Positions 44,300 through 61,883 of a stretch of DNA of 64,000 bases are shown here, piece after piece. Under the pieces are notes generated by a model. It was given only the letters and a program-made list of their open reading frames with translations, was not told the DNA's origin and did no database searches. Both the position numbers and the translations under genes were made by a program. The DNA lies in the NCBI GenBank assembly GCA_041394745.1, contig JAWKHP010000003.1, positions 29,110 to 93,109 on the forward strand. Reading direction: 5' to 3'. How positions within the stretch are numbered: the first letter of the stretch is position 1; each line of letters opens with the position of its first letter. Origin of the DNA: Thermoanaerobaculia bacterium. GTDB lineage: Bacteria; Acidobacteriota; Thermoanaerobaculia; Multivoradales; JAHEKO01.

Positions 44300-44400
44300 C
44301 CCGGCCGGCAGAGGCGCCGGCCGCTTCGATCCGCCTTCCCGGGGCAGAATGTCTGAAGCGGCCGGCCCCCGTGCCGGCCGGACGCGGGTCCCGCCGTCCA
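44300..44400. repeat. REP-like intergenic element, same family as 26990-27117
   Basis: GGCGCCGGCCGCTTC...GAAGCGGCC stem, then GGCCCCCGTGCCGGCCGGACGCGGGTCCCGCC, which is about 90% identical to the 27013-27045 motif. Confidence 0.45.
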
Positions 44401-44468
44401 CCGAGGGCCCGTTCCGCCGGGACCCTCCGGCTCCGATCGGGTATGCTGCCGTCGCCTTTTCGAGACCC

Positions 44469-45608
44469 ATGCGACGACTCCCGATCCTCGCCCTCGTCGC
44501 CCTCGTGAGTACCGTCCTCCCGGCGGCAGGGGTCGAGCCCGCGAGCCTGGACGAGCTGCTCGCGGCGCCGGTTCCCGCCGGTGAGCCGTTCCGGTTGCTG
44601 CGCCTCTCGGAGCGCGCCGTGTACGCCGAGTTCGCCTCCGCGGCGCTGCGCGCGGAGGCGCTCGAAGGGCTCGATCCGGCCGCGGTCGGGGGTTCGCTCT
44701 CCGGGCCCGCCCTGACCGTCACCGACGCCGCCCTCGCCGCGGCCTACGGCGAGGCGCCGGGCCTGCACGGAGTCGCGGCGCGGTTCCGCGAGGAGCTGGA
44801 GGCCGTCGCGCTCCTGCCTGCCGGTTGGGAGCGCCAAGCCCTCATCACCCTGGTCGCCACCGAGCGCGCGAGCGACCTCTTCGACTTCTCGGCCTCGGCG
44901 CGGATGGAGGCCGTGGCCCGCGAGGCCGACGCCATCGATCAGGGGCGCAGCACCGACCCCGGCCTCGACAGCCGGCTGACCCATTTCGGAAGCGATCTGC
45001 CGAGCGCCGAGCTCTTCGAGGCGTGGAAGTTCGACGACCTTCCCGACGTGGTCGACGAGGCCGGGAGGCGCGACCGTGATGCCGAGCGGTTGGCCGACGC
45101 GCGGCGGGCGCGCTTCCTCTCCGAGGCGGTCCGCGCGCTCTACTGGACCGACCCCTCCTACGAGGCCACGGTCATCGAGTGGATCGAGCAGGAGCTGCGT
45201 CAGGAGGACGTCAACCTCATGGCCCAGCTACTCCAGCTCGCCGGCCTGGCGGAGATCGACCCCGAGACCCTGGTGCGCGAGAGCGCCCCGCACCTCATCG
45301 ACCCGTCCGTGCTCACCGGTCGCCTCTACCGGCGGCTCGAGAGCGTCACGGTCGAGGCCAAGGGGAAGGGCCGCCGGCTCGACGCGGCGCAGTTCCCGGA
45401 CGCGGACCTGCTCGCCCGCGCCGAGACGTTCTATCGACGCTTCTTCGTCGCCGACGGGAAGGGCCGCCTCCAGTTCGAGCTCACCCCGGAGATCCGTACC
45501 TTCATCGACGCGCGCAGTGCGCGCGTCCGCCAGATCACCAGCCCCCACCTCGAGCGCCTGCTCGGGGCGGCGTACCAGAGCGGCCAGGCCGCTGGAGACA
45601 CCCGATGA
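44469..45608 (+). CDS. hypothetical secreted protein (about 380 aa)
   Basis: The Met at 44469 gives the signal peptide MRRLPILALVALVSTVLPAAG. The sequence is protein-like without recognisable motifs. Confidence 0.5.
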   Translation: MRRLPILALVALVSTVLPAAGVEPASLDELLAAPVPAGEPFRLLRLSERAVYAEFASAALRAEALEGLDPAAVGGSLSGPALTVTDAALAAAYGEAPGLHGVAARFREELEAVALLPAGWERQALITLVATERASDLFDFSASARMEAVAREADAIDQGRSTDPGLDSRLTHFGSDLPSAELFEAWKFDDLPDVVDEAGRRDRDAERLADARRARFLSEAVRALYWTDPSYEATVIEWIEQELRQEDVNLMAQLLQLAGLAEIDPETLVRESAPHLIDPSVLTGRLYRRLESVTVEAKGKGRRLDAAQFPDADLLARAETFYRRFFVADGKGRLQFELTPEIRTFIDARSARVRQITSPHLERLLGAAYQSGQAAGDTR

Positions 45609-46069
45609 CCATCGACCCGCACCTCCGTTCCCCCTTCCGTCGCATCCCCGGTTCCGCAGTCTGGCTGCCGGCGCTCGCCCTGGCGCTCACCGTCGCAGCC
45701 TGCGGCGGCGGTGCTCCCGAGGCCGACTCCGCCGCTCCCGTCGCCGACGCCGGCGACTCCGCTCCGACCACGGCAGGTCGTGAGGCCAAGGAGGAGGGAG
45801 CCGGCGGCAAGATCGAGCGGCAGATCGAGCGCTCGCGGCAGACGCTCGACCGGCTGGAGGGCCTGGTCGACGGCCTGACGCCGGAGGAGCGCCTCGAGTT
45901 CGACGACGCGGTCGCCGAGCTCGAGCGGCGGCGCGACGAGGCCGTGGCCGCCGCGGGTGCCAAGGACCTCCGCCCGGCGAAGTTGCGCAGGCTTTCACGC
46001 GAGCTGGCGAAGGTGGCCGACGAGGCCGCGCAGCTCGCCGCCAAGGCCGAAGCAGCCGCCGGCGGCTAG
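45605..46069 (+). CDS. small lipoprotein (lipobox LTVAAC) with a coiled-coil C-terminus
   Basis: The ATG at 45605 overlaps the upstream stop (ATGA). The product reads MTIDPHLRSPFRRIPGSAVWLPALALALTVAACGG. Confidence 0.5.
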   Translation: MTIDPHLRSPFRRIPGSAVWLPALALALTVAACGGGAPEADSAAPVADAGDSAPTTAGREAKEEGAGGKIERQIERSRQTLDRLEGLVDGLTPEERLEFDDAVAELERRRDEAVAAAGAKDLRPAKLRRLSRELAKVADEAAQLAAKAEAAAGG

Positions 46070-46741
46070 TCGCGACGCGGCGCGCGGCTCGAGAGTGCGT
46101 CGAAGACCCGCTCGACGAGCCGGTCGCAGCGACGACCGTCGAAGAGGTAGAGACGGCGCGCCTCCTCGCCGAGGCGCATGTCGAGGACCCGGCGCAGGTG
46201 CAGCTTCGCCCGATGTAGGCGCACCCGGGCGCCCCCCGCCGGGAGCCCGAGCCGCCCCGATCTCCTCGGCGCCCAGCCCCTCGACCTCGCGAAGCACGAA
46301 GACGGGGCGCAACGAACGGGGAAGGGTCGCGATCGCCTCGCGCAGCAGGGCCGCGAGCTCGTCGTTCGCCGTGTCCGCCTCCGGTCCCCGCGGCCCCGGC
46401 CGGGGTGGAGGGAACGCGTCGTCCAGCGGCGTCGTCGGCCGCCGGCGACGGACCCGGGCGAGCGCCTCGTGGACGGCGATACGCGTCACCCAGGTGGCGA
46501 ACGACGCCTCGCCGCGGAACGTCGCCAGCTTGTCGAAGGTCCGGACCCAGGCCTCCTGCACCACGTCTTCGGCCTCTTGCGCACTGTCGACGACGGAGCG
46601 CGTGACCCGATAGAGACGCTGGTTGTAGCGCCGCATCAGGATCTCGAAGAGCTCGATCTCGCCCTCCAAGACGCGCTCGACGACCCGTCCGTCGGCGAGA
46701 GTCGCCAAGTGCGGCCTGACCTCCAGGAGGGGTTGGCTCAT
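46066..46741 (-). CDS. ECF-family sigma-70 factor; apparent frameshift in region 4
   Basis: The Met at 46741 gives MSQPLLEVRPHLATLADGRVVERVLEGEIELFEILMRRYNQRLYRVTRSVVDSAQEAEDVVQEAWVRTF...LREVEGLGAEEIG. The true C-terminus ...ARRLYLFDGRRCDRLVERVFDALSSRAPRRD* is in another frame, with stop (forward cta) at 46066-46068. Confidence 0.7.
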
Positions 46742-46766
46742 CGGAAGCTCGGGCGGAGTGTACTGC

Positions 46767-47162
46767 TCATGGCGCCGTGCCGGCGGCGTCGCGGAGCGCG
46801 GCCAGCCGGGCCAGGGTGTAGGCGCCGACCGCCATCGCGAGGTCGCGCACCGCCACGTCGAAGCTGCCGAGGGCGAGGAGGTTGATCGCGATGAGACAGA
46901 GCCATGCGGCGGCGATCCAGGCGCCGAGCCTCGGCCAGCGCGTGAGCACCATGCACCCGACCGCCATCTCGACGACTCCGACGACGTGGAGCAGGGTCGT
47001 GGGCTCCAGCGGGACGAAGGAGGCGACCGCGGGCGACAGGTACTCGGGCCAGTCGGCGAGGAGGTTGAAGAACTTGTCGAGCCCGGCGAGCAGCGGCACC
47101 AGGGAGTAGGTGAGCCGGAGCGGCCGGTAGACCGAGTCGGGGACGGGCGAGTGATCGGACAT
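46767..47162 (-). CDS. DoxX-family membrane protein, upstream of and co-directional with the ECF sigma gene
   Basis: The Met at 47162 gives MSDHSPVPDSVYRPLRLTYSLVPLLAGLDKFFNLLADWPEYL... with four hydrophobic helices. A 25-nt gap separates it from the sigma factor start. Confidence 0.6.
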   Translation of the reverse strand: MSDHSPVPDSVYRPLRLTYSLVPLLAGLDKFFNLLADWPEYLSPAVASFVPLEPTTLLHVVGVVEMAVGCMVLTRWPRLGAWIAAAWLCLIAINLLALGSFDVAVRDLAMAVGAYTLARLAALRDAAGTAP

Positions 47163-47444
47163 GCGATCTCCTTTCCCCGATAGAGAGTCGCCCGGATCCG
47201 GATCGTTACGAGGTGGGAAAGAACGGGGCAGTCCTCCCGGGAACGCTTCCGCGGGGTGGGAGCCCGCGCGTCGCAGGAGAGCGCGCCGGCGGCGTCGCGC
47301 GGGCTCCGATGCGTCCGGCACGCCCCTTGCTCTCTAGGGGAGCACGGGAAGCGAGAGGCGTCACCTTCCCGACGACACCGACCGAACGATGAACCGACGC
47401 GGGGGACGAACGACGCCGCGGCCCCCGGCAGAGAGGAACCAGGA

Positions 47445-47765
47445 ATGAAGATCAATCGACTCGGACTCGCAGTCGCCCTCGTGGCGACTCTCCTCGCGCT
47501 CGGCACGGTCGCCACCCTGGCGGCCCAGGACGAAGGCTCCATGGACATGGAGAAGGCTCCCGTGACGTTGACCGGTCAGCTCAACGAGTCGGCCGACGGC
47601 GGCTACGTGCTCGTCGAGCCGGAGAGCGGCGAGGAGATCGTGGTCGACGGACCCGGTCTCGCCGACCACGTGGGCTCCAAGGTGACCGTCACCGGTACCT
47701 GGGAGACCGACGAGGACGGCAACACCTACCTGGCCGTCACCGAGGTGAAGGAGAGCGACGCCTAG
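47445..47765 (+). CDS. small secreted protein (106 aa)
   Basis: The ATG at 47445 is preceded by gagaggaaccagga. The signal peptide is MKINRLGLAVALVATLLALGTVATLAAQ. Confidence 0.5.
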   Translation: MKINRLGLAVALVATLLALGTVATLAAQDEGSMDMEKAPVTLTGQLNESADGGYVLVEPESGEEIVVDGPGLADHVGSKVTVTGTWETDEDGNTYLAVTEVKESDA

Positions 47766-47838
47766 GAGGCCTCGCAAGAGGCGGCCTCGCCCGGGTCGCG
47801 ACCGTTAGCCTGCCGGTCGCGGCCCGGTGCCGAGGCCA

Positions 47839-48528
47839 TCAGTAGGTCCGGGTCGACCGCGTGCGCACGGCGTAGTCGGCCTCGCAGCCGTCGGCGACCA
47901 CCGAGTACTCCGCGAGCGCGTCGTCTCGTCCCGTCGTCCGTCGTTTCGAGGACGAAGGTGAGCGTGTCGCGCAGCGGAAGGCCTTCGGCCAGGTCGCCCG
48001 GATCCGGATAGAGCAGGCCGCCGCCGAAGATCGGCAGCGTCGCGTCGGGCCGACCGGCGAAGCGTACGTGGGTGTTGCCCACCAGCACGACCCGCACGTC
48101 CTCGCTTCCCCACTCGATCTCGGCCGCCATGCTCGCCGCCCGATCCGCGGAGCCCGGAGGGTCGAGGGGGTGCACCACGGCGCGTGACTCGTCGAGGAGC
48201 GAGCGGAAGGCCTCGGCGTTGAACAGCGGTGCCAGTCGGCTGCACTCCAACGCCCGCGGCGGGCACCGGGTGCTCAGGCCTTCGACGTAGAGGCCCACGT
48301 CGAGTCCGCGATCGACGAGACCGTTCACCAGGTCGACGGTGAACTTCTTCACCGGCCCGACCGCATGACGCTCGCCGATGAAGAGGTAGTGGGGACGGTC
48401 GCGCTCGACGCGGGTGAGCACGTCGCCGAGGGTCGTGTCGATCCCCGGTCCGCAGAGGGCGCCCAGAGCTGCCGTCGTGAGGACGGAGAGGGTGCAGGTC
48501 GCGGCGGCGCAGGGGCGAGTCGACTCAT
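47839..48528 (-). CDS. ChaN/Tiki-like haem-binding lipoprotein with about two apparent frameshifts
   Basis: The GERH motif appears in HYLFIGERHAVGPVKKF. A probable start MSRLAP switches frame into CAAATCTLSVLTTAALGALCGPG (lipobox). A corrected tail reads ...DDALAEYSVVADGCEADYAVRTRSTRTY*. Confidence 0.4.
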
Positions 48529-48611
48529 CGGAAAGCGGCCCGAGAATAGCCGACGCCCCCGCCCTTCGCCCACCTGTATGGGTGGGAGGCGGGCTGCTAC
48601 CATGCGGCGCG

Positions 48612-49857
48612 GTGTCCTTCCGGCCCATCTTCCTCACCGTGGTCCTCGCCACGGCGCTGGTCGTCGCGGCGTTCGTGCTTCACGGCGAGAGGCCGGCGAT
48701 CGAGCGGGAGCAGCCGACCGCCGCGCTGGCGCGTGCCACCGGCAAGTGCGCCGAGTGCCACGCGCGGGAGACGCCGGGCGTCGTGCACGAGTTCGAGACC
48801 AGCCGGCACGCGGCGCGGGGCGTCAGCTGCCTGGACTGTCACCGGCCGGCGGAGGGTCAGGAGGAGGTCGATCATCAGGGCTTCGTCATTTCGGGCACGG
48901 TGACCGCCAAGAGCTGCTCCACGCCACCGCGGGCAGTACGAGCAGTACCTTCGCAGCCGGCATGCGGCGCCCGCGTGGGCGGCGGTCCGGGGAGCGGGTG
49001 ACTTCTCGGCCGCGCAGGTGGCGGCGGCGGAGGCGTTGCACCCGGGAGCGGTGGACCGCCCGGCCAACGCGTTGGCGGCGCTCGAAGGGGGACCCGCCCA
49101 GACGAGCGGGTGCCAGCGCTGCCACGACGTCGGCCGGCCCAACGCCGACGGCTCGATCGGTGCCTGCACGGCGTGCCACGCGCGCCACGCGGCTTCGATC
49201 GAGCTCGCCCGCACGCCGGAGACGTGCGGCCAGTGCCACATGGGTCCCGACCACTCCCAGATCGAGATCTACCGCGAGTCGAAGCACGGCGTCCTGTTCC
49301 ACACCCAGAGGGCGTCGATGAACCTGGGGGCCGATCCGAAGCGCCTCACCACCCGGGACATGCCCGTGCCCACCTGCGCCACCTGTCACATGAGCGGCCT
49401 GGAGGGTGCCAAGGTCACCCACGACACCACCGAGCGCCTCTCCTACTGGCTCTTCGCGGAGGTCTCCGAGCGCCGGCCGGCGGCGACCCGGGGAGCGCAG
49501 GAGATGCAGGATCTGTGCGCCAACTGCCACGCGCGGGACTCGATCGAGCGTTTCTACGCCCAGGCGGCGGACGTGGTCACGCGGACCAACGACCTGGTCC
49601 GCCGCGGCAGGGAGGTGATCGAAGGCCTGAGGGCCGAGCACCGCCTCTCGCCCGAGCCCTTCGACGAGCCGATCGAGTTCGCCTACTTCGACCTCTGGCA
49701 CTACTACGGACGAACCGCCAAGCACGGCGCCTTCATGGGCGGAGCCGACTTCGTCCAGTGGCACGGGTTCTACGAGCTGACCCACGGTCTCGCCGAGATC
49801 GAGGACGAGGCGGCACGGCTGCGCGGGGTGGAGGCCGGTGCGACGCCGGCTCCCTGA
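48612..49857 (+). CDS. multihaem (probably octahaem) c-type cytochrome, HAO/Otr-like, split by an indel near 48930
   Basis: A GTG start gives the signal anchor VSFRPIFLTVVLATALVVAAFVLHG. CxxCH motifs are CAECH and CLDCH (frame of ORF 48414), then CQRCH, CTACH, CGQCH, CATCH and CANCH (frame of ORF 49018). A shifted reading gives ...AKSCSTCHRGQYEQYLRSRHAAPAWAAVRGAGDFSAAQVAAAEALHPGAV with a possible eighth CSTCH. Confidence 0.65.
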
Positions 49858-50695
49858 GTCCCTCGCCCGCCCGTCCCTCCAGGTCGAGCTCTTCGTGCTC
49901 GCCAACCTGGCCTTCCTTTCGCTCGACATCGCGGTCGCCCATTCGGTCAATCGCTTCGCCGAGCCCGCCGAGTGGCTGCCGCTGGCCTTCTCCCTCCTGG
50001 CACCGTGGGTACTCCTGGTCGCCCTCTGGCTGGACCGCTGGCGGCCGGGGAGGCAAGGGCGCGGCCGCACCCTCGGTCTCGCGGTGGGCTGGGGGAGCGT
50101 CGCCGTCGGCGTGGGGGGTCTGCTCTTCCACCTCGACAGCCGCTTCTTCGCCGAGCAGACCCTCGAAAACCTCGTCTACACGGCGCCGTTCGTCGCCCCG
50201 TTGGCCTACACCGGTCTCGGGCTGCTGCTGCTGTTGGACCGCACCGTCTCCGATCGCGAGCCGGAGTGGGCCCGCTGGGTGCTGCTGCTCGCGGCAGGAG
50301 GCTTCGCCGGCAACTTCGTCCTCAGCCTCGCCGACCACGCGCAGAACGGCTTCTTCGACCCCCGGGAGTGGATCGCCGTGGGTGCTGCCGCCCTGGGCCT
50401 CTCGACCCTGCTGGTAGCGACCGTCTCGCGCCCGAGCCGGGGATGGCTGCGTTTCGTGATCGGCATCCTGATCCTCGAGGCGCTCGTCGGTCTCCTCGGC
50501 GCCTGGCTGCACTGGCGGGCGATTCTCGCGAGCCCCATGAGCCGGCCGCTGGAGCGGGTCGTCTACTCGGCACCCGCCTTCGCGCCGCTTCTCTTCCCCA
50601 ACCTCGCCCTGCTCGCCGCGCTCGCCGTGGCGGCGGCTCGGCCCGACAGTGAACCCGGCGTCCTCTCGAGCGTAGAAGGGGACCAGGCCGGCTGA
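49838..50695 (+). CDS. polytopic membrane protein (about 7-8 TM helices) overlapping the cytochrome gene end
   Basis: A 285-aa ORF with a GTG start, hydrophobic throughout (LFVLANLAFLSLDIAVAHSV...FVLSLADHAQNGFFDPREWIAVGAAALGLSTLL...). Confidence 0.55.
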   Translation: MRRRLPESLARPSLQVELFVLANLAFLSLDIAVAHSVNRFAEPAEWLPLAFSLLAPWVLLVALWLDRWRPGRQGRGRTLGLAVGWGSVAVGVGGLLFHLDSRFFAEQTLENLVYTAPFVAPLAYTGLGLLLLLDRTVSDREPEWARWVLLLAAGGFAGNFVLSLADHAQNGFFDPREWIAVGAAALGLSTLLVATVSRPSRGWLRFVIGILILEALVGLLGAWLHWRAILASPMSRPLERVVYSAPAFAPLLFPNLALLAALAVAAARPDSEPGVLSSVEGDQAG

Positions 50696-50725: not shown

Positions 50726-54004
<3,279 letters not shown>

Positions 54005-54142: not shown

Positions 54143-57100
54143 CTAGTTGGCGCAGATGGCGATGTCGTCGACGCCGGCCTCGATCAGGTCGCCGCTGGCG
54201 GTGCCGTCGGAGGCCTGGACGCGGAAGCGGACGCTGGAGCCCGCCGGGACCGCGGTGGTCGCCTCGGTCCACGCGGCGTTGCTGGTGACGTCGCCGAGGG
54301 AGACCATCGGGGTCCAGGTCGAGCCGCCGTTGGTGGAGATCTCGAGGCGGAAGAAGTCGCCGCTCGGATCGCCGCCGGCGTCGCGCTGGCCGTGGAAGTA
54401 CCAGACCGAGACGTCGGACGACTCGCTCACCGGGTAGACCGGCGACAGCGCGATGCAGTTGCCGCCGTCGACGTCGTCGGTGCCCGCCGCCGTGTTGACG
54501 GCGGTGAAGAAGGCGTTGCCCGTCCCGGTCGTGTGGTCGCCGCCGACCTGGGTGACGACCCCGCCGTTGGTGACCTGGGTGGGCGTGCCGACGACGAAGG
54601 CACCGGTCGTGCAAGTGCTGGAACCGCTGTTGGTCCAGCCCTCGGCGCCGCCGCTGAAGTGCGCGTCGACGCTGCACGCGGAGGCCGTTCCTCCGGTCAC
54701 CACGACGTCGTCGACGAACCACCCGGTGAAGTTGTTGAAGGAGCCGTCGATCGAGTCGAAGCGGAACCGGATCTGGATGTCGTTGCCGGCGAAGGCGGCG
54801 AGAGAGATCGGTCCGCTGGAGACCCAGGCGGCGGTCGAGGCGTTGGTGGAGTCACGCGACCACACCGTCGTCCACGAGCCGCTGCCGGCCACCGAGACGG
54901 CGACCTGCGTCTGGTCGAAGGAGCCTCCGGCGTAGGACTCGACGACCCGGTAGTAGTCGAACGAGAGCTCCGAGGAGGCGGTGACTCCGCTGATGGCCGG
55001 GGAGATCAGATCGCCGGTGGTGTCGCCCGCGTTGTAGGTGCAGGTGGAGTTCTGACCGTAGTAGACCGACGAGACCGGGGAGGAGTAGCCGGGGCTGGCG
55101 CAGCCGGAGCTCGACACCAGGTGCCACAGGCCACTCGTGGTCCAACCGGAGAGACCGCTCTCGAAGTCCTCTTCGAACGGGTTGCCGCCGCCGGCCGGCG
55201 TGATCGTGATGCCGATCGCGTCGGAGTCGGAGAGGCCGCCGGAGTCGGTGACCGAGGCGGTGATGGTGTGGCTGCCGATCGAGAGTGAGCTGGTGGAGAA
55301 CGAGGCCCCGGAGCCGATGGCCCCGTCGAGGCTCGAGGTCCACGACAGGCTCGAGGAGAGCGGACCGTCCTCGGCGTCCGTGGCGGTGCCGCTGAACGAG
55401 ATCGAGCTGCCGACGACGAAGGAGGCACCGTTCGACGGTGCGGTGATCGTCACGCTCGGCGGCGTGTTGGACGCACCACCGCCGGTGACGACGACGTCGT
55501 CGACGAACCACCCGGTGAAGTTGTTGAAGCTGCCGTCGATCGAGTCGAAGCGGAAGCGGATCCGGATGTCGTTTCCGGCGAAGCCGGCGAGGGAGATCGC
55601 ACCGCTGGCGGCCCAGGCCGCGGTCGAGGCGTTGGTGGAGTCGCGCGACCAGACCGTCGTCCACGAGCCGCTGCCGGCCACCGAGACGGCGACCTGCGTC
55701 TGATCGTAGGAGCCTCCGGCGTAGGACTCGACGACCCGGTAGTAGTCGAACGAGAGCTCCGAGGAGGCGGTGATGCCGGTGACGACGGGCGAGATGAGGT
55801 CACCGGTGGTGTCCCCCGCGTCGTACGTGCAGGTCGAGTTCTGACCGTAGTAGAGCGAGGAGACCGGTGAAGAGTAGCCGGGGCTGGCGCATCCGGAGCT
55901 CGAGACCAGGTGCCACAAGCCGCTCGTGGTCCAGGCCCCGAGGCCACCCTCGAAGTCCTCGTGCAGGCGCTCGCCGCCCGCCGAGGTGATGGTCACGCTG
56001 ATCGAGTCGGAGCCCGAGGCGCCGCCCGAGTCGGTGACCGAAGCGGTGATGGTGTGGGTGCCCACCGACAGCGAGCTGATGGAGAACGACGCGCCGGAGC
56101 CGATCGAGCCGTCGCGACTCGAGGTCCAGGAGAGGCTCGAGGAAAGCGGGCCGTCCTCGGCGTCGGTGGCCGTCCCCGCGAACGAGACGGACGCACCCTC
56201 GGCGAAGCTGGAACCGTCGGCCGGGGCCGTGATCGTCACCACCGGGGCCTGATTGACCGGTCCGCCGCACCCCGGAATGCTGAAGGCGCCGACGTGGGTG
56301 CGCCAGGAGGCGCTGCTGGTCGAGGCCAGGTACTCGGTGGTGAACCAGAAGGTGCAGTCGTCCGCCGGGTCGAGCTCCATCGAGGCGTAGTCGCCCCAGC
56401 GCGCGGCGCTGTGGGTCTGTGAGCCGCCGCCGGCGAGCAGCACGGACTCGGCCTCGAGCGTGCCGAGGGGGTCGCCGGCGTCGCGCGTGGCGTAGTAGAT
56501 CGACGGGAAGTTGCTGGCGTTGCCGCGGCTGTAGCCGAGCGCGATGTTGCCGGAGCCGTCCATGGCGATGGAGGGCATCCAGCGGTGCACGGCGTCGGGC
56601 GAGTGCGTGCCCTGCTGATAGAGGGTCCAGCCCGCGCCGGTATCGCGCAGCTCGAACCAGCGCGGAGCCGCCCGGTTGCCGGTGGAATTGACGTCCACCG
56701 TCCAGGCACCCACGAGGGTCTCGTGACTGCCGAAGTTGCGATAGACGAGGCGCTGCATCGGCCACCACGAGGCGCTGTCGATGCCCTGGCTCGTGCCGGG
56801 CTGCGGGATGCAGTTGGAGACGAAGAAGCCGCACACGGTCCAGTTGAAGTTGGCGAGCCCCTGGCTCGGAGTGATCGAGCGCACGAGGCTGATCGAGGAG
56901 CTCGACGGGGTGTTCCAGTCGACGTGGAACTCGTAGACGTCGAGCGAGTCCGTCGCCGGGGAGCCGAAGTAGGGCTCACCGCCGTCCCGGAAGCTGTAGA
57001 ACGTTCCGGGCCTGTTGGCCGGCGGCGGCGTGGCGCCGTCGGAATCGGCGGGCATCATCAGGTTGGGGAAGCTCTGGAAGAACTGCATCGGCCGCGCCGT

Positions 57101-58387
57101 CTGCCCCGCGATCATCCGCGCGCGGTCGATGGCGAAGACGTCGTACTGGTTCTGGGAGCCGGAGTTGGTGCCCATGAAGTACGCGTTGTTGTTCGCCGCC
57201 GGCCAGACACCGAGCTTGAAGTAGTCGGGGAATCGCGGGGTGACGACCTCGTAGAGGTACCAGGAGCCGGTGGGGTCGGGGGTCTGCGAGACGGCGAAGC
57301 ACACCGACTCGTTGTTGTTCGAGACCGCGAACTGGGAGAGGACGAAGCGGTTCGCCTGCTGGTCGTAGAGGGCGATCGCGTCGCCGTCGTTGAAACTCTG
57401 GCACGGTCCGCCGAAGCCCGACCACAGTGAGCTGGTGTTGGTCGGGCCGGTGAGCTTGGTGCCGCTCTTGTCGTAGATGGCGAAGGAGAGGTTGACGACC
57501 TGGATGTAGTGGTTCGGACCGACCGTTCCCTCGGTGTCGGGAGGCAGCACGCCGTTGACGTTGTTGATGCCCTCGAAGTCGAGCGACAGGGAGGGCGTGC
57601 GGCCGGGGGCCTCTGCGCCCGGACCGGCGAGGACGTCCTCGGACTTCGGGGCGGTGGTACCGAAGAGGTTGCCGTTCTCGTCGAAGAGGGTCTCGTGGCG
57701 CAGCTCGTTGACCTCTTCGCCGCGGTCCTTCAGGGTGCCGGTGACGGCGAGCGGCAGGTCGCGGACGGGGAGGGAGAGGCGCGGCCCGAGCACCGGCACC
57801 TCGAAGGGCCGGCGCCGGGTGCCGTGGTCGTTGCGGTCACCGCGCGTGCCGCCGCCGTCGGCCATCGGTCGCAAGATGGCGGCCTGGACGGCGCTCGCGC
57901 CGCCGGGGATCCGGTATCCCTCGAAGTGCGGCCCGGGGGCGCCCGGCGTGCGGACTCCCGCGGCCACCAGCACGGACTCGAGCGTGTGTCCCGCCGGGAG
58001 GATGCCCACGCGCGGCCCGTAGGCCAGGCCGTCCAACGTGAGCTCGAGCTCGACCTCGGGGCAGGCCGCGAAGACGTCCTGCAGGGAGGCGAGCAGGCTG
58101 CCGGGGGCGGCCTCACCGCGGCCGAGATCGATCGAGAAGTCGCCATGGCGCATGGTGGTCGGCGGCAGGGTCTCGGCATAGAGCTCCGCCCCCTCGGGGT
58201 CGAAGTAGCGGGCCGTGACCGAGACGGTGCCGTCGAGCGGCTGGCCCGCGGCGTCGAGCGCCCGACCGCGGTAACCGAGATGCTCGGGTACCGAGACGGC
58301 CGCGACCGGCAGCGCGCCGAACAGGAGGATGCAGGCGGCGGTCGCCGCCCACGCGCTCAGGGGAGCTCTCGAGGTGCAACGGATCAT
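54143..58387 (-). CDS. giant secreted multidomain protein (1413 aa): N-terminal region, propeller-like domain, two tandem PKD/Ig-like plus MAM/LamG-like jelly-roll modules, and a C-terminal MAM-like domain
   Basis: The Met at 58387 (ggagaa RBS) gives the signal MIRCTSRAPLSAWAATAACILLFGALPVAAVSV. The Ig-like region reads ITAPADGSSF...ITASVTDSGG. The jelly-roll region starts EDFE(G/S)GL(G/S)(A/G)WTTSGLWHLVSS...FDYYRVVESYAGGS...FRFDSIDGSFNNFTGWFVDDVVV. The gene is intact over 4.2 kb. Confidence 0.7.
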   Translation of the reverse strand: MIRCTSRAPLSAWAATAACILLFGALPVAAVSVPEHLGYRGRALDAAGQPLDGTVSVTARYFDPEGAELYAETLPPTTMRHGDFSIDLGRGEAAPGSLLASLQDVFAACPEVELELTLDGLAYGPRVGILPAGHTLESVLVAAGVRTPGAPGPHFEGYRIPGGASAVQAAILRPMADGGGTRGDRNDHGTRRRPFEVPVLGPRLSLPVRDLPLAVTGTLKDRGEEVNELRHETLFDENGNLFGTTAPKSEDVLAGPGAEAPGRTPSLSLDFEGINNVNGVLPPDTEGTVGPNHYIQVVNLSFAIYDKSGTKLTGPTNTSSLWSGFGGPCQSFNDGDAIALYDQQANRFVLSQFAVSNNNESVCFAVSQTPDPTGSWYLYEVVTPRFPDYFKLGVWPAANNNAYFMGTNSGSQNQYDVFAIDRARMIAGQTARPMQFFQSFPNLMMPADSDGATPPPANRPGTFYSFRDGGEPYFGSPATDSLDVYEFHVDWNTPSSSSISLVRSITPSQGLANFNWTVCGFFVSNCIPQPGTSQGIDSASWWPMQRLVYRNFGSHETLVGAWTVDVNSTGNRAAPRWFELRDTGAGWTLYQQGTHSPDAVHRWMPSIAMDGSGNIALGYSRGNASNFPSIYYATRDAGDPLGTLEAESVLLAGGGSQTHSAARWGDYASMELDPADDCTFWFTTEYLASTSSASWRTHVGAFSIPGCGGPVNQAPVVTITAPADGSSFAEGASVSFAGTATDAEDGPLSSSLSWTSSRDGSIGSGASFSISSLSVGTHTITASVTDSGGASGSDSISVTITSAGGERLHEDFEGGLGAWTTSGLWHLVSSSGCASPGYSSPVSSLYYGQNSTCTYDAGDTTGDLISPVVTGITASSELSFDYYRVVESYAGGSYDQTQVAVSVAGSGSWTTVWSRDSTNASTAAWAASGAISLAGFAGNDIRIRFRFDSIDGSFNNFTGWFVDDVVVTGGGASNTPPSVTITAPSNGASFVVGSSISFSGTATDAEDGPLSSSLSWTSSLDGAIGSGASFSTSSLSIGSHTITASVTDSGGLSDSDAIGITITPAGGGNPFEEDFESGLSGWTTSGLWHLVSSSGCASPGYSSPVSSVYYGQNSTCTYNAGDTTGDLISPAISGVTASSELSFDYYRVVESYAGGSFDQTQVAVSVAGSGSWTTVWSRDSTNASTAAWVSSGPISLAAFAGNDIQIRFRFDSIDGSFNNFTGWFVDDVVVTGGTASACSVDAHFSGGAEGWTNSGSSTCTTGAFVVGTPTQVTNGGVVTQVGGDHTTGTGNAFFTAVNTAAGTDDVDGGNCIALSPVYPVSESSDVSVWYFHGQRDAGGDPSGDFFRLEISTNGGSTWTPMVSLGDVTSNAAWTEATTAVPAGSSVRFRVQASDGTASGDLIEAGVDDIAICAN
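54702..56280. repeat. intragenic tandem duplication, 2 x 789 bp at about 93-95% nucleotide identity (encodes the duplicated PKD+MAM module)
   Basis: 'acgacgtcgtcgacgaaccacccggtgaagttgttgaag' occurs at 54702 and again at 55491. The alignment continues for about 790 bp with scattered substitutions. Confidence 0.7.
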
Positions 58388-58605
58388 CGTGGTTCTCCTT
58401 CCGACGGCATCCGCCGTCCGGTGGAAACAGACTGATTGCCGGTCGTTCGGGCCGGTGCGGCCGGCGCGGCCGCCCGTGGAAGCGCATCGCCGGTGGACCG
58501 TGCGCCACGCTCTCTGGGGCTTGTTTGACCTCAGATTTAGCACAAGCCGCGGCACGCCCGCGTGACGTGGTCCACAGCGGCCCTCATCGGGCCCTCATCG
58601 TTTCC

Positions 58606-60192
58606 TCAGCGGAGCGGCTCGGTCGGCTCCGTCGGTGCGTCGGGGAGCCGCCCGGCGCGGTAGGCGGCCAGCCGAGCCTCGGCGCGGCGGCGGCCGGGAC
58701 CGGCGGGCCACGCCTCGACGGCGCGCCGCTGGGCGGCGGTCGCGGCGTCGAAGTCACCGCCGGCGGCGAGGACCATGGCCGTCGTCTCGAGCCCCTGCAC
58801 CGTGTCGCCGCCGGTGAGGGAGCGCACCAGCTCCTCCGCCCGGAGCGCTGCCTCGGGCGTACCGGAGAACGCCAGAAGGCGGGCCAGGAGCAGGCGCGGA
58901 CCCTGGGCCTCGGGGGCCACCGGGAGGAACGCCTCGAGGTCCGCGACCGCCCGCTCCGCCTCGCCGGACCTCAGCAGGCAGCGCGCCCTGCCGGTGACGG
59001 CCCCGGCGAGACCCTCGTCGAGCGCGAGCGCCTCGCCGTAGGCGACGTCGGCCTCTCCGCAGCGCCCGGCGCGGCGCAGCAGGTCGCCGAGCGCCACCTG
59101 CGACTCCGCGTCGAGGGGGTCGAGCTCGACCGCCCGGCGCAGCAGACGCTCGCCGTCCTCGCGCTCGCCCAGCTCCTCGCGCAAGAGGCCGAGCCGGCGG
59201 ACCGCCGGCGGGTAGTCGGGCCGCTCCTCGAGCAGGCTCGCGATCTCCTCGCGCGCCTCCTCGGGGCGGCCGAGACGGGTGAGGAGATCGGCGATGTCGA
59301 GTCGAGCGTAGATCCGGTCGGGCTCCATCCGCAGGGCCTGTCGGAGCTCGACGAGAGCCAGCTCGAGGCGTCCGCGGCTCCTCGCTTCGAGGGCGCGGAC
59401 GTCGTGCTCCCGGGCGTCGCTGCGCAGCTGTGCCACCTCGCGCCACACCGGGTCGAGCCGGCGGAGCTCGTCGGCCAGCGTGGCCGTGCCCGTGACTCCT
59501 TCGAGCGCTCGGCCCGCGCCGTCGAGGTCGCCGCTGCGGCGACGGGCCTCAGCCTCCAGGTGGGCCAAGGCGGGTGAGCGGAGCCCGTCGGAGCGGGCGG
59601 CGGCCAGGTGCTCGAGGGCGACCCGGGGCCGCTCCTGCTGGAGGGCGAGACGGGCCAGCTCGGCCTGGGCGAGGCCGCGGACCGCGCCGCCGGGGGCGCG
59701 CGGGAGGACGGCGCGCGCAGCCCGTCCCGCGCCTTCGGCGTCGCCGGTCGCGAAGCGCAGCTCGGCGATCCAGAGGCCGGTGATCGGCTCGTTCCGGGCC
59801 TCGGCTCCCGCTCCTTCGAGCACCTCGAGCGCCTCGGCCGGGCGGCCGTCGCGCAGCCAGGCGTGCGCCAGCAGGGAGGTCCAGCGCGGCTCGGAGGGCG
59901 CCAGCTCGTGGGCGACGCGAAGGCAGGTGCGAGCGCTCTCGAGCGGGCCGTAGGCGAGATGGAAGGTACCGAGCTCGCCGAACGCGGCGGCGCGGCGGGC
60001 GTCCCCCGTGGCTCCGGGAGGCTCCCGCCGGGCCTCTCGGACACCGTCGGAGAGCCGGTCGTAGAGCTCGCCCACGGCAGGGCTCCAGAGGGAGCGATCG
60101 AGAGGCGGCCGGAGCTCGGGCAGCTCGGTGCGGTGGGGCGCGCAGGCGAACAGGGCGGACAGCAGGATCGCGGCGGGGGTCGGGCGCTTCAC
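58606..60192 (-). CDS. TPR-repeat lipoprotein
   Basis: MKRPTPAAILLSALFACAP (lipobox) is followed by multiple TPR-like helical repeats over 528 aa. Confidence 0.55.
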   Translation of the reverse strand: MKRPTPAAILLSALFACAPHRTELPELRPPLDRSLWSPAVGELYDRLSDGVREARREPPGATGDARRAAAFGELGTFHLAYGPLESARTCLRVAHELAPSEPRWTSLLAHAWLRDGRPAEALEVLEGAGAEARNEPITGLWIAELRFATGDAEGAGRAARAVLPRAPGGAVRGLAQAELARLALQQERPRVALEHLAAARSDGLRSPALAHLEAEARRRSGDLDGAGRALEGVTGTATLADELRRLDPVWREVAQLRSDAREHDVRALEARSRGRLELALVELRQALRMEPDRIYARLDIADLLTRLGRPEEAREEIASLLEERPDYPPAVRRLGLLREELGEREDGERLLRRAVELDPLDAESQVALGDLLRRAGRCGEADVAYGEALALDEGLAGAVTGRARCLLRSGEAERAVADLEAFLPVAPEAQGPRLLLARLLAFSGTPEAALRAEELVRSLTGGDTVQGLETTAMVLAAGGDFDAATAAQRRAVEAWPAGPGRRRAEARLAAYRAGRLPDAPTEPTEPLR

Positions 60193-61883
60193 CGCGCCCT
60201 CGCCGGTCCGAAGACGTAGAGACGGCCGGGCCGCGGGTCGAGCAGACGAAGGGGGCGCTCCGGACGCGCGAGGAGCAGGGCCGAAGGGCGCCGACCGCCG
60301 AGGCCGAAGAGCGCCCTGGGGTCCGATGCCGAGGCGAAGCTCCCGTCCGTCTTGAAGCGGCGGCGCTGTCGCCGCCCGCCCGCCTCGAGGTCGACGGTCC
60401 GGGAGGCGAGCCCGGCCGCCACGGCCGTGGGCCGGGCGTCGGCGCCGAGCCAGTCGGCGGCGGCCGGGGCGCCCTCCCGCACCAGGACGCGGACCGGACC
60501 GTTGTTGTTCTGCACCACGAGGTCGGCGTCGCCGTCGCCGTCCAGATCCCCGACGGCCAGCCCCCGGCCGACCTCCGGCGCGGCGAGGTCGTCGATCCCG
60601 GTGCGCACCTCCTCGAAGCGACCCTCGCCGAGATTGTGAAAGAGCTGCCCGGCCTGTCGCAGGGGGTGGGCGAGGCCGGCGCGCCGCTGCTCTTCGATGA
60701 GCTGGATGGAGCCGTTGACGACCGCCAGGTCGAGGAGGCCGTCGAGGTCGTAGTCGAGCGGCACGGCCCCGAAACCGGTGCGGTTCCAGCTCGGGGGGCC
60801 GAGTCCCGAGGGCTCGCTGCGGTCCTCGAAGACGCCGTCCCGATTGCGGTAGAGAGTGTTGGTCTCGCCGTCGAGGTGGGTCAGGAAGACGTCCTCGTCG
60901 AGATCGTCGTCGAGGTCGGCGGCGACCGTCCCCATGCTCGCCTCCGGAGCGCCCAGGAGGTTGACGGCCGCACCGCGCAGCACGGCCTCGTCCCGAAAGG
61001 CGCCGTCGGCGTGTTGGAGCCAGAGCTGGTTGGCCATCAGGTCGTTGCTGACGTAGAAGTCGAGGCGGCCGTCGCCGTCGAAGTCCCCGCTGGCGACGCC
61101 GAGGCCCTTTCCGATCACGGAGCGGAGGCCGGCGGCGACCGTGACGTCCTCGAATCGACCGTCACCCACGTTGTGGAGGAGCCGATCGGGAACGGGGCCG
61201 AAGCCCTGCGGCCCGCAGTAGGCGGGCGCTCCGGCGGCGTCGAGACAGGGCCGTGCGTTGGCCAGGCGGTAGTCGAGATAGTCGACGACGTAGAGGTCCA
61301 GACGACCGTCGCCGTCGTAGTCGGCGAGCGCGGCGCTGGTCGAGAAGCGGGGATCGTCCACGGCGGGATCCGGGGCCGCCGGCGAGAACGTGCCGTCGCC
61401 GTCGTTGAGCCAGAGCCGGTTGGGACCGAAGTCCGTGAGGTAGAGGTCCTCGTCGCCGTCGCCGTCCACGTCGCCGGCCGCGACGCCGATGCCGTAGCCG
61501 TACGCCGCGAGGCGGCTGGAGGGCGTGACGTCGAGGAAGGCGAGCCGGCGGGTGCCCTCGGCCGCGGCCCGCAGATCGTTGCGGAAGAGGCGGTCCCCGC
61601 CGGTCTCCGGCGCGGGGTGCGAGGGATCCAGACGGTGCCCCTGGCGCAGGTAGACGTCGAGGTCCCCGTCCCCGTCGTAGTCGACCAGGGCGACGCCGGC
61701 GCCGAGGTTCTCGACCAGGTAGAGCGCCCCGGTCATGCCGTTGTCGTGCCGGAAGTGCAAGCCCGCCTGCGCCGCGACGTCCCGGAAGAGAGGGGGAGGG
61801 GCCTGCGGCGAGCATGCGCTCCAGAGGGTCCAGGCCGCCAGGGTCCGGAGCGCGAGGGCGCGTCTGCGACGGGAGTCCGACAC
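60189..61883 (-). CDS. FG-GAP/VCBS-repeat, CRTAC1 (ASPIC/UnbV)-family lipoprotein
   Basis: A GTG start gives VSDSRRRRALALRTLAAWTLWSAC (lipobox). It has repeated DxDGDGxxD Ca-binding FG-GAP blades and a C-terminal UnbV/ASPIC-like segment. Its stop overlaps the TPR gene start by 4 nt. Confidence 0.7.
   Translation of the reverse strand: MSDSRRRRALALRTLAAWTLWSACSPQAPPPLFRDVAAQAGLHFRHDNGMTGALYLVENLGAGVALVDYDGDGDLDVYLRQGHRLDPSHPAPETGGDRLFRNDLRAAAEGTRRLAFLDVTPSSRLAAYGYGIGVAAGDVDGDGDEDLYLTDFGPNRLWLNDGDGTFSPAAPDPAVDDPRFSTSAALADYDGDGRLDLYVVDYLDYRLANARPCLDAAGAPAYCGPQGFGPVPDRLLHNVGDGRFEDVTVAAGLRSVIGKGLGVASGDFDGDGRLDFYVSNDLMANQLWLQHADGAFRDEAVLRGAAVNLLGAPEASMGTVAADLDDDLDEDVFLTHLDGETNTLYRNRDGVFEDRSEPSGLGPPSWNRTGFGAVPLDYDLDGLLDLAVVNGSIQLIEEQRRAGLAHPLRQAGQLFHNLGEGRFEEVRTGIDDLAAPEVGRGLAVGDLDGDGDADLVVQNNNGPVRVLVREGAPAAADWLGADARPTAVAAGLASRTVDLEAGGRRQRRRFKTDGSFASASDPRALFGLGGRRPSALLLARPERPLRLLDPRPGRLYVFGPARAR

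What the first reader, a model, noticed from the sequence alone, without database searches (positions are those of the whole stretch)
48612..50695. Octahaem-type cytochrome c gene with an overlapping polytopic membrane partner, next to a ChaN-like haem lipoprotein
Seven CxxCH motifs are visible, and an eighth (CSTCH) appears if the indel near 48930 is corrected. Haem spacing and the C-terminal region (FAYFDLWHYYGRTAKHGAFMGGADFVQWHG) are reminiscent of HAO, octahaem tetrathionate reductase or ONR-like enzymes. The downstream 285-aa 7-8-TM protein starts inside the cytochrome stop region (coupled) and could be the quinone-interacting or anchor subunit. A divergently transcribed ChaN/Tiki-type haem-binding lipoprotein lies immediately upstream. 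Together this is an uncharacterised respiratory or redox module.
Basis: partly seen in the sequence, partly recalled or inferred. Interest (0 to 1): 0.6.

Follow-up and report, generated by a model that had tools for sequence, protein, structure and literature searches.

The report
Octahaem HAO-like cytochrome with novel membrane partner
This is a real two-gene unit, an eight-haem enzyme of the hydroxylamine-oxidoreductase family always followed by an uncharacterised eight-helix membrane protein, that occurs in hundreds of soil and water bacterial species and probably connects the membrane quinone pool to reduction of nitrite, nitric oxide or hydroxylamine.

Summary
The cytochrome gene (48612-49857) has seven intact CxxCH motifs and an eighth (CSTCH) broken by a 2-nt deletion after 48922. 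An independent 99.7%-identical assembly carries the missing GT and an intact 415-aa ORF, so the frameshift is almost certainly an assembly error.

The protein belongs to the HAO family (PF13447). Its closest solved relative is Ignicoccus IhOCC, and it is not NrfA, ONR or OTR. No cross-linking Tyr could be placed.

The 285-aa downstream protein overlaps the cytochrome stop by 20 nt. It has eight TM helices made of a duplicated 4-TM unit and exactly four His, which are conserved (three in all 119 homologues aligned, H98 in 118) and predicted on the periplasmic side. It matches nothing in Pfam, NCBIfam or PDB.

The pairing held in 74 of 74 testable loci across Acidobacteriota, Planctomycetota, Myxococcota and other phyla, and in two distant family members. 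Flanking genes are not conserved, except in Acidobacteriaceae, where qNOR, RIC, Crp/Fnr and hemerythrin genes sit nearby.

The upstream protein does have a ChaN/Tiki-superfamily fold, but it is an incidental neighbour.

Best reading: a minimal membrane-bound, quinol-linked reductase for nitrogen oxides with a new kind of membrane subunit. The function is inferred, not shown.

The parts
48612..49857 (+). HAO-family (IhOCC-clade) octahaem cytochrome c gene. It encodes 415 aa once the 2-nt assembly deletion after 48922 is repaired. As deposited it is split into frame 3 (48612-48922) and frame 1 (48925-49857).
   Evidence: NCBI annotated only the C-terminal 279 aa (P0012).
48612..48689 (+). N-terminal hydrophobic segment of the cytochrome (VSFRPIFLTVVLATALVVAAFVLHGE). 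Probably an uncleaved signal anchor.
   Evidence: It is conserved about as well as the haem core (0.70-0.78 column identity; M1, F7, A15 and A20 invariant, F3 and V18 nearly invariant). The anchor role is inferred.
48915..48927 (+). Third haem motif (CSTCH), disrupted by the missing GT/TG dinucleotide after 48922.
49111..49125 (+). Fourth haem motif (CQRCH). It aligns with the catalytic haem 4 motif (CTMCH) of N. europaea HAO.
   Evidence: Profile alignment; coordinates.
49249..49254 (+). Asp214-His215 (GPDH). It aligns with the GVDH Asp-His of N. europaea HAO and is invariant in the family.
49692..49781 (+). The most conserved C-terminal block of the cytochrome (approximately FDLWHYYGRTAKHGAFMGGADFVQWHGFYE), with three invariant His (H364, H372, H385). 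The oxidative HAOs and IhOCC do not share these His (KsHAOr has one His in this stretch, aligned to M376).
   Evidence: Its role (subunit interface or extra ligand site) is unknown.
49838..50695 (+). Partner gene: a 285-aa, 8-TM protein built from an internal 4-TM + 4-TM duplication. GGAGG lies at 49830-49834 and the GTG start overlaps the cytochrome gene by 20 nt.
49940..49942 (+). His35, at the end of TM1, in the motif D30-x3-A-H35-x2-N38.
   Evidence: Invariant in 119/119.
50129..50131 (+). His98 (TM3).
   Evidence: 118/119.
50336..50338 (+). His167, at the end of TM5, in the motif LADHAQNGFF.
   Evidence: 119/119. Aligns with His35 in the internal repeat.
50510..50512 (+). His225 (TM7).
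   Evidence: 119/119. Aligns with His98 in the internal repeat.

Best explanation
The two genes encode a minimal membrane-bound respiratory or detoxifying enzyme. The catalytic subunit is a periplasm-facing octahaem cytochrome c of the HAO family, in the IhOCC-like clade that appears to lack the Tyr cross-link and is therefore 'reductive-type'. It is probably held at the membrane by its own conserved N-terminal helix. The second subunit is an 8-TM protein of a previously undescribed family. Its four conserved histidines, with conserved Asp, Glu, Asn and Gln, cluster at the periplasmic membrane surface. I propose that this subunit takes electrons from quinol, either through one or two bis-His haems b or through a cofactor-less quinol pocket. 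It would pass them to the haem chain of the cytochrome (to haem 1 by analogy with HAO and NrfH), and the five-coordinate haem 4 would then reduce nitrite, NO and/or hydroxylamine.

Shown here: the family assignment, the eight haem motifs, the strict gene pairing, the duplication, the conserved His residues, and the absence of any match to known membrane families. Inferred: that the two proteins form a complex, the cofactor content, quinol as donor, the substrate and the direction of the reaction.
For: Family: PF13447 at 74.8 bits. Profile E 3.4e-48 to IhOCC 4qo5, 5e-26 to NeHAO and 1.8e-22 to KsHAOr 6h5l. All 8 CxxCH motifs and the Asp-His pair over haem 4 are invariant.

Reductive type: IhOCC, εHAOs and KsHAOr lack the cross-link and reduce nitrite or hydroxylamine (PMC9250108, PMC8042395). 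Most non-anammox HAO-like proteins are predicted to be reductive (PMC12758564). NeHAO Tyr467 aligns to A370 (MAFFT) or to Q383 (by hand via KsHAOr, from the alignment), never to a Tyr.

Pairing: 74/74 loci from at least 552 matching species-genome stretches have the cytochrome directly upstream. Distant partners P0387 and P0339 are paired too. Starts overlap or abut the cytochrome stop. No third conserved gene exists outside Acidobacteriaceae.

Partner: AF2 pLDDT 91.4 and pTM 0.89 with 8 TM helices. N-half versus C-half hhalign gives probability 98.2%, E 2.7e-14, with H35 aligned to H167 and H98 to H225. The window protein has exactly four His, all conserved, and no Cys; the K+R distribution places the His ends outside.

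Context: in about 20 Acidobacteriaceae loci, plus single Planctomycetota loci, the pair lies beside qNOR, RIC (ScdA_N + hemerythrin), a Crp/Fnr regulator and a hemerythrin. That is the position a nir gene usually occupies next to nor.
Against: No experiment exists for this clade or for the partner. Haem b or quinone binding is not shown, and coordinates of the model were not available to measure His-His geometry. All four His lie at one membrane face, which does not fit a transmembrane dihaem wire. The NO-related neighbourhood comes mostly from one family (Acidobacteriaceae), so it counts as few independent events, and the window itself has no N-cycle neighbours. The physiological role of IhOCC is itself unknown. 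The Tyr position could not be aligned unambiguously, and two invariant Tyr (Y365, Y388) lie nearby. Carriers are mostly aerobic heterotrophs not known to respire nitrite.
Confidence: 0.5

Rival explanations
1. The same complex runs oxidatively. It would be a compact hydroxylamine (or NO or hydrazine):quinone oxidoreductase, a two-subunit version of the HAO, c554, cM552, quinone route of nitrifiers, feeding electrons from hydroxylamine into the quinone pool.
For: It is a member of the HAO family with the Asp-His pair conserved. Sources name homologues 'hydroxylamine dehydrogenase'. Two invariant Tyr (Y365, Y388) lie in the C-terminal block where the cross-linking Tyr could not be placed with certainty.
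Against: The closest solved relative, IhOCC, has a Tyr at the Y388-equivalent position yet no P460 (PMC9250108). No alignment puts NeHAO Tyr467 on a Tyr. Cross-link-free HAOs tested so far do not oxidise hydroxylamine (PMC8042395). No amo or pmo genes are nearby.
Confidence: 0.12
2. The 8-TM protein is not a redox subunit. It would be a dedicated anchor, assembly or haem-handling factor for this cytochrome, or a channel for its substrate or product.
For: Conserved His pairs at the periplasmic face of TM helices are also the hallmark of haem-handling proteins such as CcsA and CcmF (general knowledge). Strict co-occurrence fits a chaperone equally well.
Against: The cytochrome has only canonical CxxCH motifs, which need no special lyase. 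The partner has no W-rich WWD motif. hhalign to the N-terminal part of E. coli NrfE gives 0.3% probability. Translational coupling suggests similar amounts of the two proteins, which would be unusual for a catalytic maturation factor.
Confidence: 0.15
3. The enzyme acts on a substrate that is not a nitrogen compound, for example sulfite, polysulfide or tetrathionate, peroxide, or a metal. Alternatively it is mainly an electron-transfer relay.
For: Related octahaem enzymes such as MccA and OTR act on sulfur compounds. The physiological substrate of IhOCC is unknown, and it was reported to be reduced by hydrogenase (PMC4429474). Most loci have no N-cycle neighbours.
Against: It matches the HAO clade and not MccA or OTR. 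The HAO-type Asp-His pair is invariant. The only recurrent neighbours are NO-related.
Confidence: 0.12
4. In this organism the cytochrome is a true pseudogene, so the module is dead here.
For: The deposited sequence carries the frameshift, and NCBI called only the C-terminal 279 aa.
Against: An independent 99.7%-identical assembly has the intact gene. The two assemblies differ mostly at indels in G/C runs. The ChaN-like gene, an ECF sigma gene and PEP carboxylase in the same window are also broken by frameshifts. No other damage has accumulated: the repaired protein is 100% identical to the intact copy.
Confidence: 0.06

Closest known systems
IhOCC (Igni_0955) of Ignicoccus hospitalis, PDB 4qo5
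   Same: It is the best solved match (profile E 3.4e-48). It is an octahaem HAO-clade protein and membrane-associated. It shares the short link between the last two long helices, without the ~57-residue insertion seen in KsHAOr. It has no P460 and reduces nitrite (PMC9250108).
   Different: The match is patchy rather than full-length and the proteins are clearly distinct. IhOCC lacks the His-rich GRTAKHG...VQWHG block. Whether IhOCC has a homologous 8-TM neighbour could not be checked. It is archaeal and from a hyperthermophile.
Reductive HAOs: KsHAOr (kustc0458/0457, PDB 6h5l) and epsilonproteobacterial εHAO
   Same: They are HAO-family enzymes that lack the Tyr cross-link and reduce nitrite (to NO in KsHAOr), NO and hydroxylamine (PMC8042395).
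   Different: Their partners differ. KsHAOr is soluble and binds a dihaem cytochrome c. εHAO uses NapC/NrfH-type tetrahaem quinol dehydrogenases (from my own knowledge, not tested here). Here the partner is a Cys-free polytopic protein. Profile E-value to 6h5l is only 1.8e-22.
NrfHA, and NrfABCD or other NrfD-type quinol-linked multihaem reductases
   Same: The proposed logic is the same: a periplasmic multihaem reductase wired to the quinol pool by a small membrane subunit. NrfD/PsrC proteins, from my own knowledge, also have 8 TM helices arranged as two four-helix bundles with a periplasmic-side quinol site.
   Different: There is no CxxCK haem, and NrfA and NrfH models score far below cutoff. 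The partner gets no Pfam NrfD hit. hhalign to E. coli NrfD gives 0.7% probability. Foldseek finds no PDB match with E below 0.08. No FeS subunit is encoded nearby.
N. europaea HAO with c554/cM552 (the hydroxylamine-ubiquinone redox module) and HaoB
   Same: Same cytochrome family, with haem 4 and the Asp-His pair aligned. The overall idea of an HAO linked to the quinone pool is shared.
   Different: No Tyr467 equivalent was found. The protein is 415 aa against 570 aa. No c554 or cM552 genes are present. HaoB is, from my own knowledge, a different single-anchor protein, and no HaoB sequence was available to test.

Membership tests
HAO / octahaem cytochrome c family (Pfam PF13447) | Eight CxxCH haem c motifs in the conserved order | tested here: met
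   Motifs at residues 46, 73, 102, 168, 186, 206, 256 and 303 after repair. All are invariant in 18 sequences. The intact copy is in L085.
HAO / octahaem cytochrome c family (Pfam PF13447) | Significant match to the family model and to solved members | tested here: met
   PF13447 E 8.9e-21, 74.8 bits against a cutoff of 21.9. 4qo5 at 3.4e-48, 4fas at 5e-26, 6h5l at 1.8e-22, 6hif at 2.4e-18.
HAO / octahaem cytochrome c family (Pfam PF13447) | Catalytic haem 4 with a distal Asp-His pair | tested here: met
   CQRCH aligns to NeHAO CTMCH, and GPDH (D214-H215, invariant) aligns to NeHAO GVDH. Five-coordination itself is not testable here.
Oxidative (P460) HAO/HDH subgroup | Tyr that cross-links to haem 4 of the neighbouring subunit (NeHAO Tyr467) | tested here: inconclusive
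   The NeHAO 408-505 sequence was verified against 4fas. MAFFT aligns Tyr467 to A370. My hand alignment through KsHAOr, based on the alignment, gives Q383. HMMER does not align this region. No placement falls on a Tyr, but invariant Y365 and Y388 are close. IhOCC has the Y388-equivalent Tyr and no P460.
NrfA / NrfH nitrite reductase pair | CxxCK active-site haem in NrfA; tetrahaem NapC/NrfH partner | tested here: not met
   No CxxCK. NrfA NF008339 scores 20 bits against a cutoff of 595, and NrfH TIGR03153 scores 23.9 against 134. The partner has 0 Cys.
ONR (TvNiR) and OTR octahaem reductases | Full-length similarity to ONR or OTR | tested here: not met
   ONR matches only residues 45-120 at E ~3e-4, and OTR does not appear in the list.
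NrfD/PsrC polytopic quinol-interacting subunits (PF03916) | Sequence or fold similarity to NrfD-family proteins | tested here: not met
Membrane dihaem cytochromes b (NarI, HyaC/FdnI type) | Sequence similarity, and His pairs placed at both membrane faces | tested here: not met
   hhalign to NarI and to HyaC gives 0.2% probability each, and there is no Pfam hit. The four conserved His all lie at the ends of odd-numbered helices, that is at one face.
ChaN / Tiki superfamily (upstream neighbour only) | ChaN-like alpha/beta fold with GxxH motifs; for ChaN proper, a match to PF04187 and haem binding | tested here: inconclusive
   Fold: the AF2 model (pLDDT 88) matches HopBA1 at 8.5e-6, ChaN 2g5g at 7.6e-5, RRSP and BcR135. 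GE-H and G-x-x-H are invariant. No Pfam or NCBIfam hit. Haem binding is not testable here.

The most novel reading that the evidence does not exclude
The 8-TM protein would found a new class of respiratory membrane subunit, unrelated to NapC/NrfH, NrfD or the known cytochromes b. It would use a duplicated four-helix unit with a four-His site on the periplasmic side (haem b or another metal) to connect the quinone pool directly to an HAO-type enzyme. The pair would then be an overlooked, widespread quinol:nitrite/NO/hydroxylamine oxidoreductase of soil Acidobacteriota and Planctomycetota. In Acidobacteriaceae it would take the 'nir' role next to qNOR.
Probability: 0.3. Interest if true: 0.75.

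Novelty: new variant of a known kind. Interest (0 to 1): 0.6.

Why it matters
Genes of this clade are routinely labelled 'hydroxylamine dehydrogenase', 'hao' or even 'nitrate reductase' in MAG surveys. They are then used to argue for nitrification, anammox-like or nitrite-reducing potential (PMC11266412, PMC10732223) without any biochemistry.

This work shows three things about the clade:
- It always travels with one specific membrane protein of an undescribed family.
- It lacks a recognisable cross-linking Tyr.
- In one large lineage it sits with qNOR and NO-stress genes.

That gives a concrete, testable model for how many abundant soil and wastewater heterotrophs handle nitrite, NO or hydroxylamine, with consequences for NO and N2O budgets. 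It also supplies a candidate physiological electron partner for the IhOCC-type enzymes, whose role is unknown. Cultured carriers exist for experiments: Paludisphaera borealis, Telmatobacter bradus DSM 23630, and strains ZRK32 and ZRK34.

Tried and rejected
- Single-base repair of the frameshift leads into the wrong frame. A 1-nt skip gives CSTH, not CxxCH. Only a 2-nt insertion works.
- Profile and phmmer searches of the C-terminal block against PDB could not align the oxidative HAO C-termini. I verified the NeHAO 408-505 sequence and aligned it with MAFFT and HMMER, but the Tyr467 position stays ambiguous.
- One PDB search was wasted on a spurious ORF fragment entered by mistake.
- My guess that a ~430-aa membrane protein next to the pair in Acidobacteriaceae is NnrS was not supported: no Pfam hit even at E<=1.
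- Clustering of flanking ORFs outside Acidobacteriaceae found no third conserved gene, only shadow ORFs of the pair.
- The window's own neighbours do not recur near the pair elsewhere. These are the ChaN-like protein, the DUF5818-like protein, the DoxX-like protein and the tricorn protease.
- hhalign of the partner family against E. coli NrfD, NarI, HyaC and NrfE gave probabilities below 1%.
- Seven literature searches found no study of the partner or of this clade's function. Parey 2016 and Maalcke 2014 are not held.
- I could not check whether the 'small membrane-bound protein' next to Hao in Deferribacter (PMC6896113) is related.
Full report
**Origin of the window.** The window matches, at 100% protein identity, a 298,802-bp contig of a Thermoanaerobaculia (Acidobacteriota) MAG held at NCBI (P0012 and P0121). 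Its GC content is 72%.

**The observation.**
- From GTG 48612 the reading frame encodes a hydrophobic N-terminus, then CAECH and CLDCH, and then reads '...AKSCSTPPRAV' to a stop at 49001.
- The +1 frame continues with '...HRGQYEQYLRSRHAAPAW...' and five further CxxCH motifs, ending at the stop codon 49855-49857.
- Inserting one base, or skipping one, does not restore a haem motif. Inserting two bases after 48922/48923 (ACG|TG|CCAC) gives CSTCH and a single 415-aa protein with eight CxxCH motifs.
- In an alignment with 17 homologues of 61-69% identity, that motif and the other seven are invariant.
- The decisive check came from a near-identical strain assembled independently: Logan contig L085, SRR32022410, 6,290 bp, 99.7% identical to window 44360-50644. 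It reads CTCCACGTGCCACC at this site and encodes an intact 415-aa ORF, 100% identical to my repaired protein.
- Several of the other differences between the two assemblies are also indels in G/C runs.
  - One (an extra C at 47927) frameshifts the upstream gene.
  - A garbled stretch at 46232-46257 falls in an ECF sigma gene.
  - Elsewhere in the window, PEP carboxylase is split over three frames.
- I therefore treat the frameshift as an assembly artefact. NCBI annotated only the last 279 aa.

**What the cytochrome is.**
- Pfam assigns it to PF13447, Multi-haem_cyto (74.8 bits; cutoff 21.9).
- Against solved structures, a family profile gives:
  - IhOCC of Ignicoccus hospitalis (4qo5): E 3.4e-48.
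  - N. europaea HAO: 5e-26.
  - The cross-link-free nitrite-reducing KsHAOr (6h5l): 1.8e-22.
  - mHAO, HDH and KsHOX: about 1e-18.
  - ONR and NrfA: only a short N-terminal stretch, at 1e-4 to 1e-3.
- NrfA, NrfH and HDH NCBIfam models score far below their cutoffs, and there is no CxxCK motif.
- The fourth motif (CQRCH) aligns with the catalytic haem 4 motif of HAO. The invariant GPDH aligns with the HAO Asp-His pair.
- The protein is therefore a member of the HAO lineage, in the IhOCC branch that Soares et al. place as sister to HAO/HDH (PMC9250108).

**The cross-linking tyrosine.**
- HMMER does not align the C-terminal 60 residues to the oxidative HAOs.
- I verified the NeHAO 408-505 sequence against 4fas, which fixes Tyr467 in 'GGWTYTEGW'.
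- MAFFT places Tyr467 on A370. A hand alignment through KsHAOr, based on the alignment, places it on Q383.
- Neither position is a Tyr, but invariant Y365 and Y388 are nearby.
- IhOCC has a Tyr at the Y388-equivalent position and no P460 (PMC9250108).
- A recent phylogenetic reconstruction predicts that most non-anammox HAO-like proteins are of the reductive type (PMC12758564).
- I score this feature as inconclusive, leaning towards absent.

**The partner.**
- The ORF 49838-50695 starts at a GTG three bases after GGAGG and overlaps the cytochrome gene by 20 nt.
- It has no Pfam or NCBIfam match. Twenty homologues scanned at E<=10 also match nothing meaningful.
- A 119-sequence profile finds nothing in PDB sequences.
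- It has more than 2,000 relatives in the 90%-clustered collection, all 'hypothetical'. In the exhaustive search of 1.84 billion representatives there are 945 hits at E<=1e-3 and 573 at 1e-10. This is a compact family of proteins about 260-300 aa long, plus fragments.
- AlphaFold2 gives a confident model (pLDDT 91.4, pTM 0.89) with eight long helices and two short surface helices.
- Foldseek against PDB gives no match better than E 0.08 or TM 0.33.
- The two halves are homologous: hhalign probability 98.2%, E 2.7e-14. H35 aligns with H167, H98 with H225, E45 with E177, and YTAPFxAPL with YxAPxFAPL.
- The window protein contains exactly four histidines and no cysteine. Three of the four His are invariant in 119 sequences and the fourth is present in 118.
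- Lys and Arg are concentrated in the N-terminus, the TM2-3 loop and the C-terminus. This implies an N-in topology, which puts all four His, at the ends of TM1, 3, 5 and 7, at the periplasmic face where the cytochrome must sit.
- hhalign against E. coli NrfD, NarI, HyaC and NrfE gives probabilities below 1%.

**Gene pairing.**
They come from Acidobacteriota, Planctomycetota, Myxococcota, Poribacteria, Gemmatimonadota and Marinimicrobia.
  - Acidobacteriota include Terracidiphilus, Telmatobacter bradus DSM 23630 and Thermoanaerobaculia.
  - Planctomycetota include Isosphaeraceae, Gemmataceae, Pirellulales, Phycisphaerae and strains ZRK32 and ZRK34.
- In all 74 of the 84 loci examined that have at least 1.3 kb upstream, tblastn finds the cytochrome directly upstream on the same strand.
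- Starting instead from cytochrome homologues gave the same pair in Paludisphaera borealis, a Phycisphaerales MAG and a third contig.
- Two of the most distant full-length partners (P0387, E 9e-35; P0339) also follow a PF13447 cytochrome that carries the same C-terminal block.
- Flanking genes vary. Clustering of all flanking ORFs outside Acidobacteriaceae shows no third conserved gene.

**Functional context.**
- In about 20 Acidobacteriaceae loci the pair lies among the following genes:
  - a quinol-dependent NO reductase (789 aa; PF22085 + PF00115);
  - a RIC/ScdA-type di-iron repair protein;
  - a Crp/Fnr regulator;
  - a hemerythrin;
  - a radical-SAM protein.
- qNOR also neighbours the pair in a Planctomycetales MAG (L012), and the Crp/Fnr cluster includes a Planctomycetia locus (L042).
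- This is the arrangement usually seen for nir next to nor. It favours a role in nitrite or NO metabolism, but it comes largely from one lineage.
- The window itself has unrelated neighbours: tricorn-like protease, ECF sigma, DoxX-like, PEP carboxylase and TPR/FG-GAP proteins.

**The upstream 'ChaN-like' gene.**
- It belongs to a small family of 58 hits, apparently centred on Thermoanaerobaculia (every source name given is from that class or an allied lineage), with no Pfam domain.
- A model built on a clean 89%-identical homologue (pLDDT 88) matches HopBA1, ChaN, RRSP and BcR135, that is the Tiki/ChaN/EreA superfamily, at E 1e-5 to 1e-3 and TM about 0.5.
- The invariant GE-H, H, E and G-x-x-H residues look more like the enzyme members of that superfamily than like a haem carrier. 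This is inference.
- It does not recur near the pair in 84 other loci.
- Its homologues in two other Thermoanaerobaculia genomes have no cytochrome neighbour. They do keep a gene of about 110 aa next to them.
- It is an incidental neighbour.

**Mechanism proposed.**
- Shown here:
  - an HAO-family octahaem protein with a conserved N-terminal hydrophobic helix, conserved as well as the haem core;
  - a first haem motif about 20 residues after that helix;
  - a strictly co-inherited, translationally coupled 8-TM protein with a conserved four-His and acidic cluster on the periplasmic side.
- Inferred:
  - the two proteins form a complex;
  - the membrane subunit oxidises quinol at the periplasmic face, through bis-His haem(s) b in each four-helix unit or through a cofactor-less pocket;
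  - electrons pass along the haem chain to haem 4, which reduces nitrite, NO or hydroxylamine.
- Such a site on the periplasmic side would be electroneutral, as in NrfH or CymA systems (general knowledge).
- Rivals are:
  - an oxidative hydroxylamine:quinone module;
  - a non-redox assembly or anchor role for the partner;
  - a substrate that is not a nitrogen compound;
  - a true pseudogene.

**Literature.** Hao-like octahaem genes in Phycisphaerae have been noted and tentatively called 'Onr', explicitly untested (PMC11266412). Similar genes are counted as 'hao' in MAG surveys (PMC10732223). None of the papers found mentions the membrane partner or characterises this clade.

**Verdict.**
- The cytochrome is a new member of a known family.
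- The two-gene system, with its undescribed partner family, is a new variant of the known theme of quinol-linked multihaem reductases.

Noticed in passing
window 47839-48508 (- strand); indel at 47927: The upstream Tiki/ChaN-superfamily gene is also frameshifted. The window has one extra C at 47927 compared with L085, and the true C-terminus (...EYSVVADGCEADYAVRTRSTRTY*) is in another frame. It belongs to a small unannotated family, apparently centred on Thermoanaerobaculia, with invariant GE-H / H / E / G-x-x-H residues and two invariant Cys.
   Followed up: yes
window 47445-47765 (+); L086 6896-7231; L087 6833-7162: A ~106-aa secreted protein (weak DUF5818 hit, E 2.7e-4) lies beside the ChaN-like gene. 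Genes of similar size (109-111 aa) sit next to the ChaN-like homologues in two other Thermoanaerobaculia genomes, which suggests a separate small conserved pair. Homology between these small proteins was not checked.
   Followed up: partly
window 45995-46800 (- strand), differences at 46232-46257: An ECF sigma-70 gene (225 aa and intact in L085) is garbled in the window. A cluster of substitutions and a 2-nt indel separates region 2 from the region 4 peptide (MRLHRAKLHLRRVL...).
   Followed up: partly
window 36751-39573 (- strand): PEP carboxylase is split over at least three reading frames. The N-terminal 575 aa match PF00311 positions 1-572 of 919. The TEQGE and GLQNTG motifs lie in other frames. 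This is further evidence of indel errors across this assembly.
   Followed up: partly
L083 2017-4389, L081 6560-7606, L023 9047-10069, L040 10838-11569, L063 9399-11165: In about 20 Acidobacteriaceae genomes the pair is embedded in an NO-related cluster: qNOR, RIC/ScdA, Crp/Fnr regulator, hemerythrin and a radical-SAM protein. qNOR also neighbours the pair in a Planctomycetales MAG (L012).
   Followed up: partly
L078 6864-8378 (- strand) and about 19 other loci, including Gemmataceae L051: A polytopic membrane protein of ~430-500 aa with His-rich motifs lies immediately downstream of the pair on the opposite strand. It has no Pfam match even at E<=1. I guessed NnrS, and that was not supported.
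   Followed up: partly
L042 4886-5665: In one Planctomycetia locus the cytochrome upstream of the partner is only 34% identical over a partial match. It is either a divergent variant or a damaged gene.
   Followed up: no
L004 9233-9502: In this contig the partner was called as only 217 aa, starting 270 nt after the cytochrome stop. tblastn covers only residues 69-248. The cause is probably a miscalled start or an indel.
   Followed up: no
window 50726-54004 (+): A 1,092-aa tricorn-type protease (PD40 repeats, Tricorn_C1, PDZ_Tricorn, Peptidase_S41) lies directly downstream. A homologue lies near the pair in only one other locus (L033).
   Followed up: yes
window 54143-62036 (- strand): A run of large secreted or surface-type proteins: 1,470 aa with Big_7 and PKD-like domains, a 528-aa TPR protein and a 615-aa FG-GAP repeat protein.
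   Followed up: no
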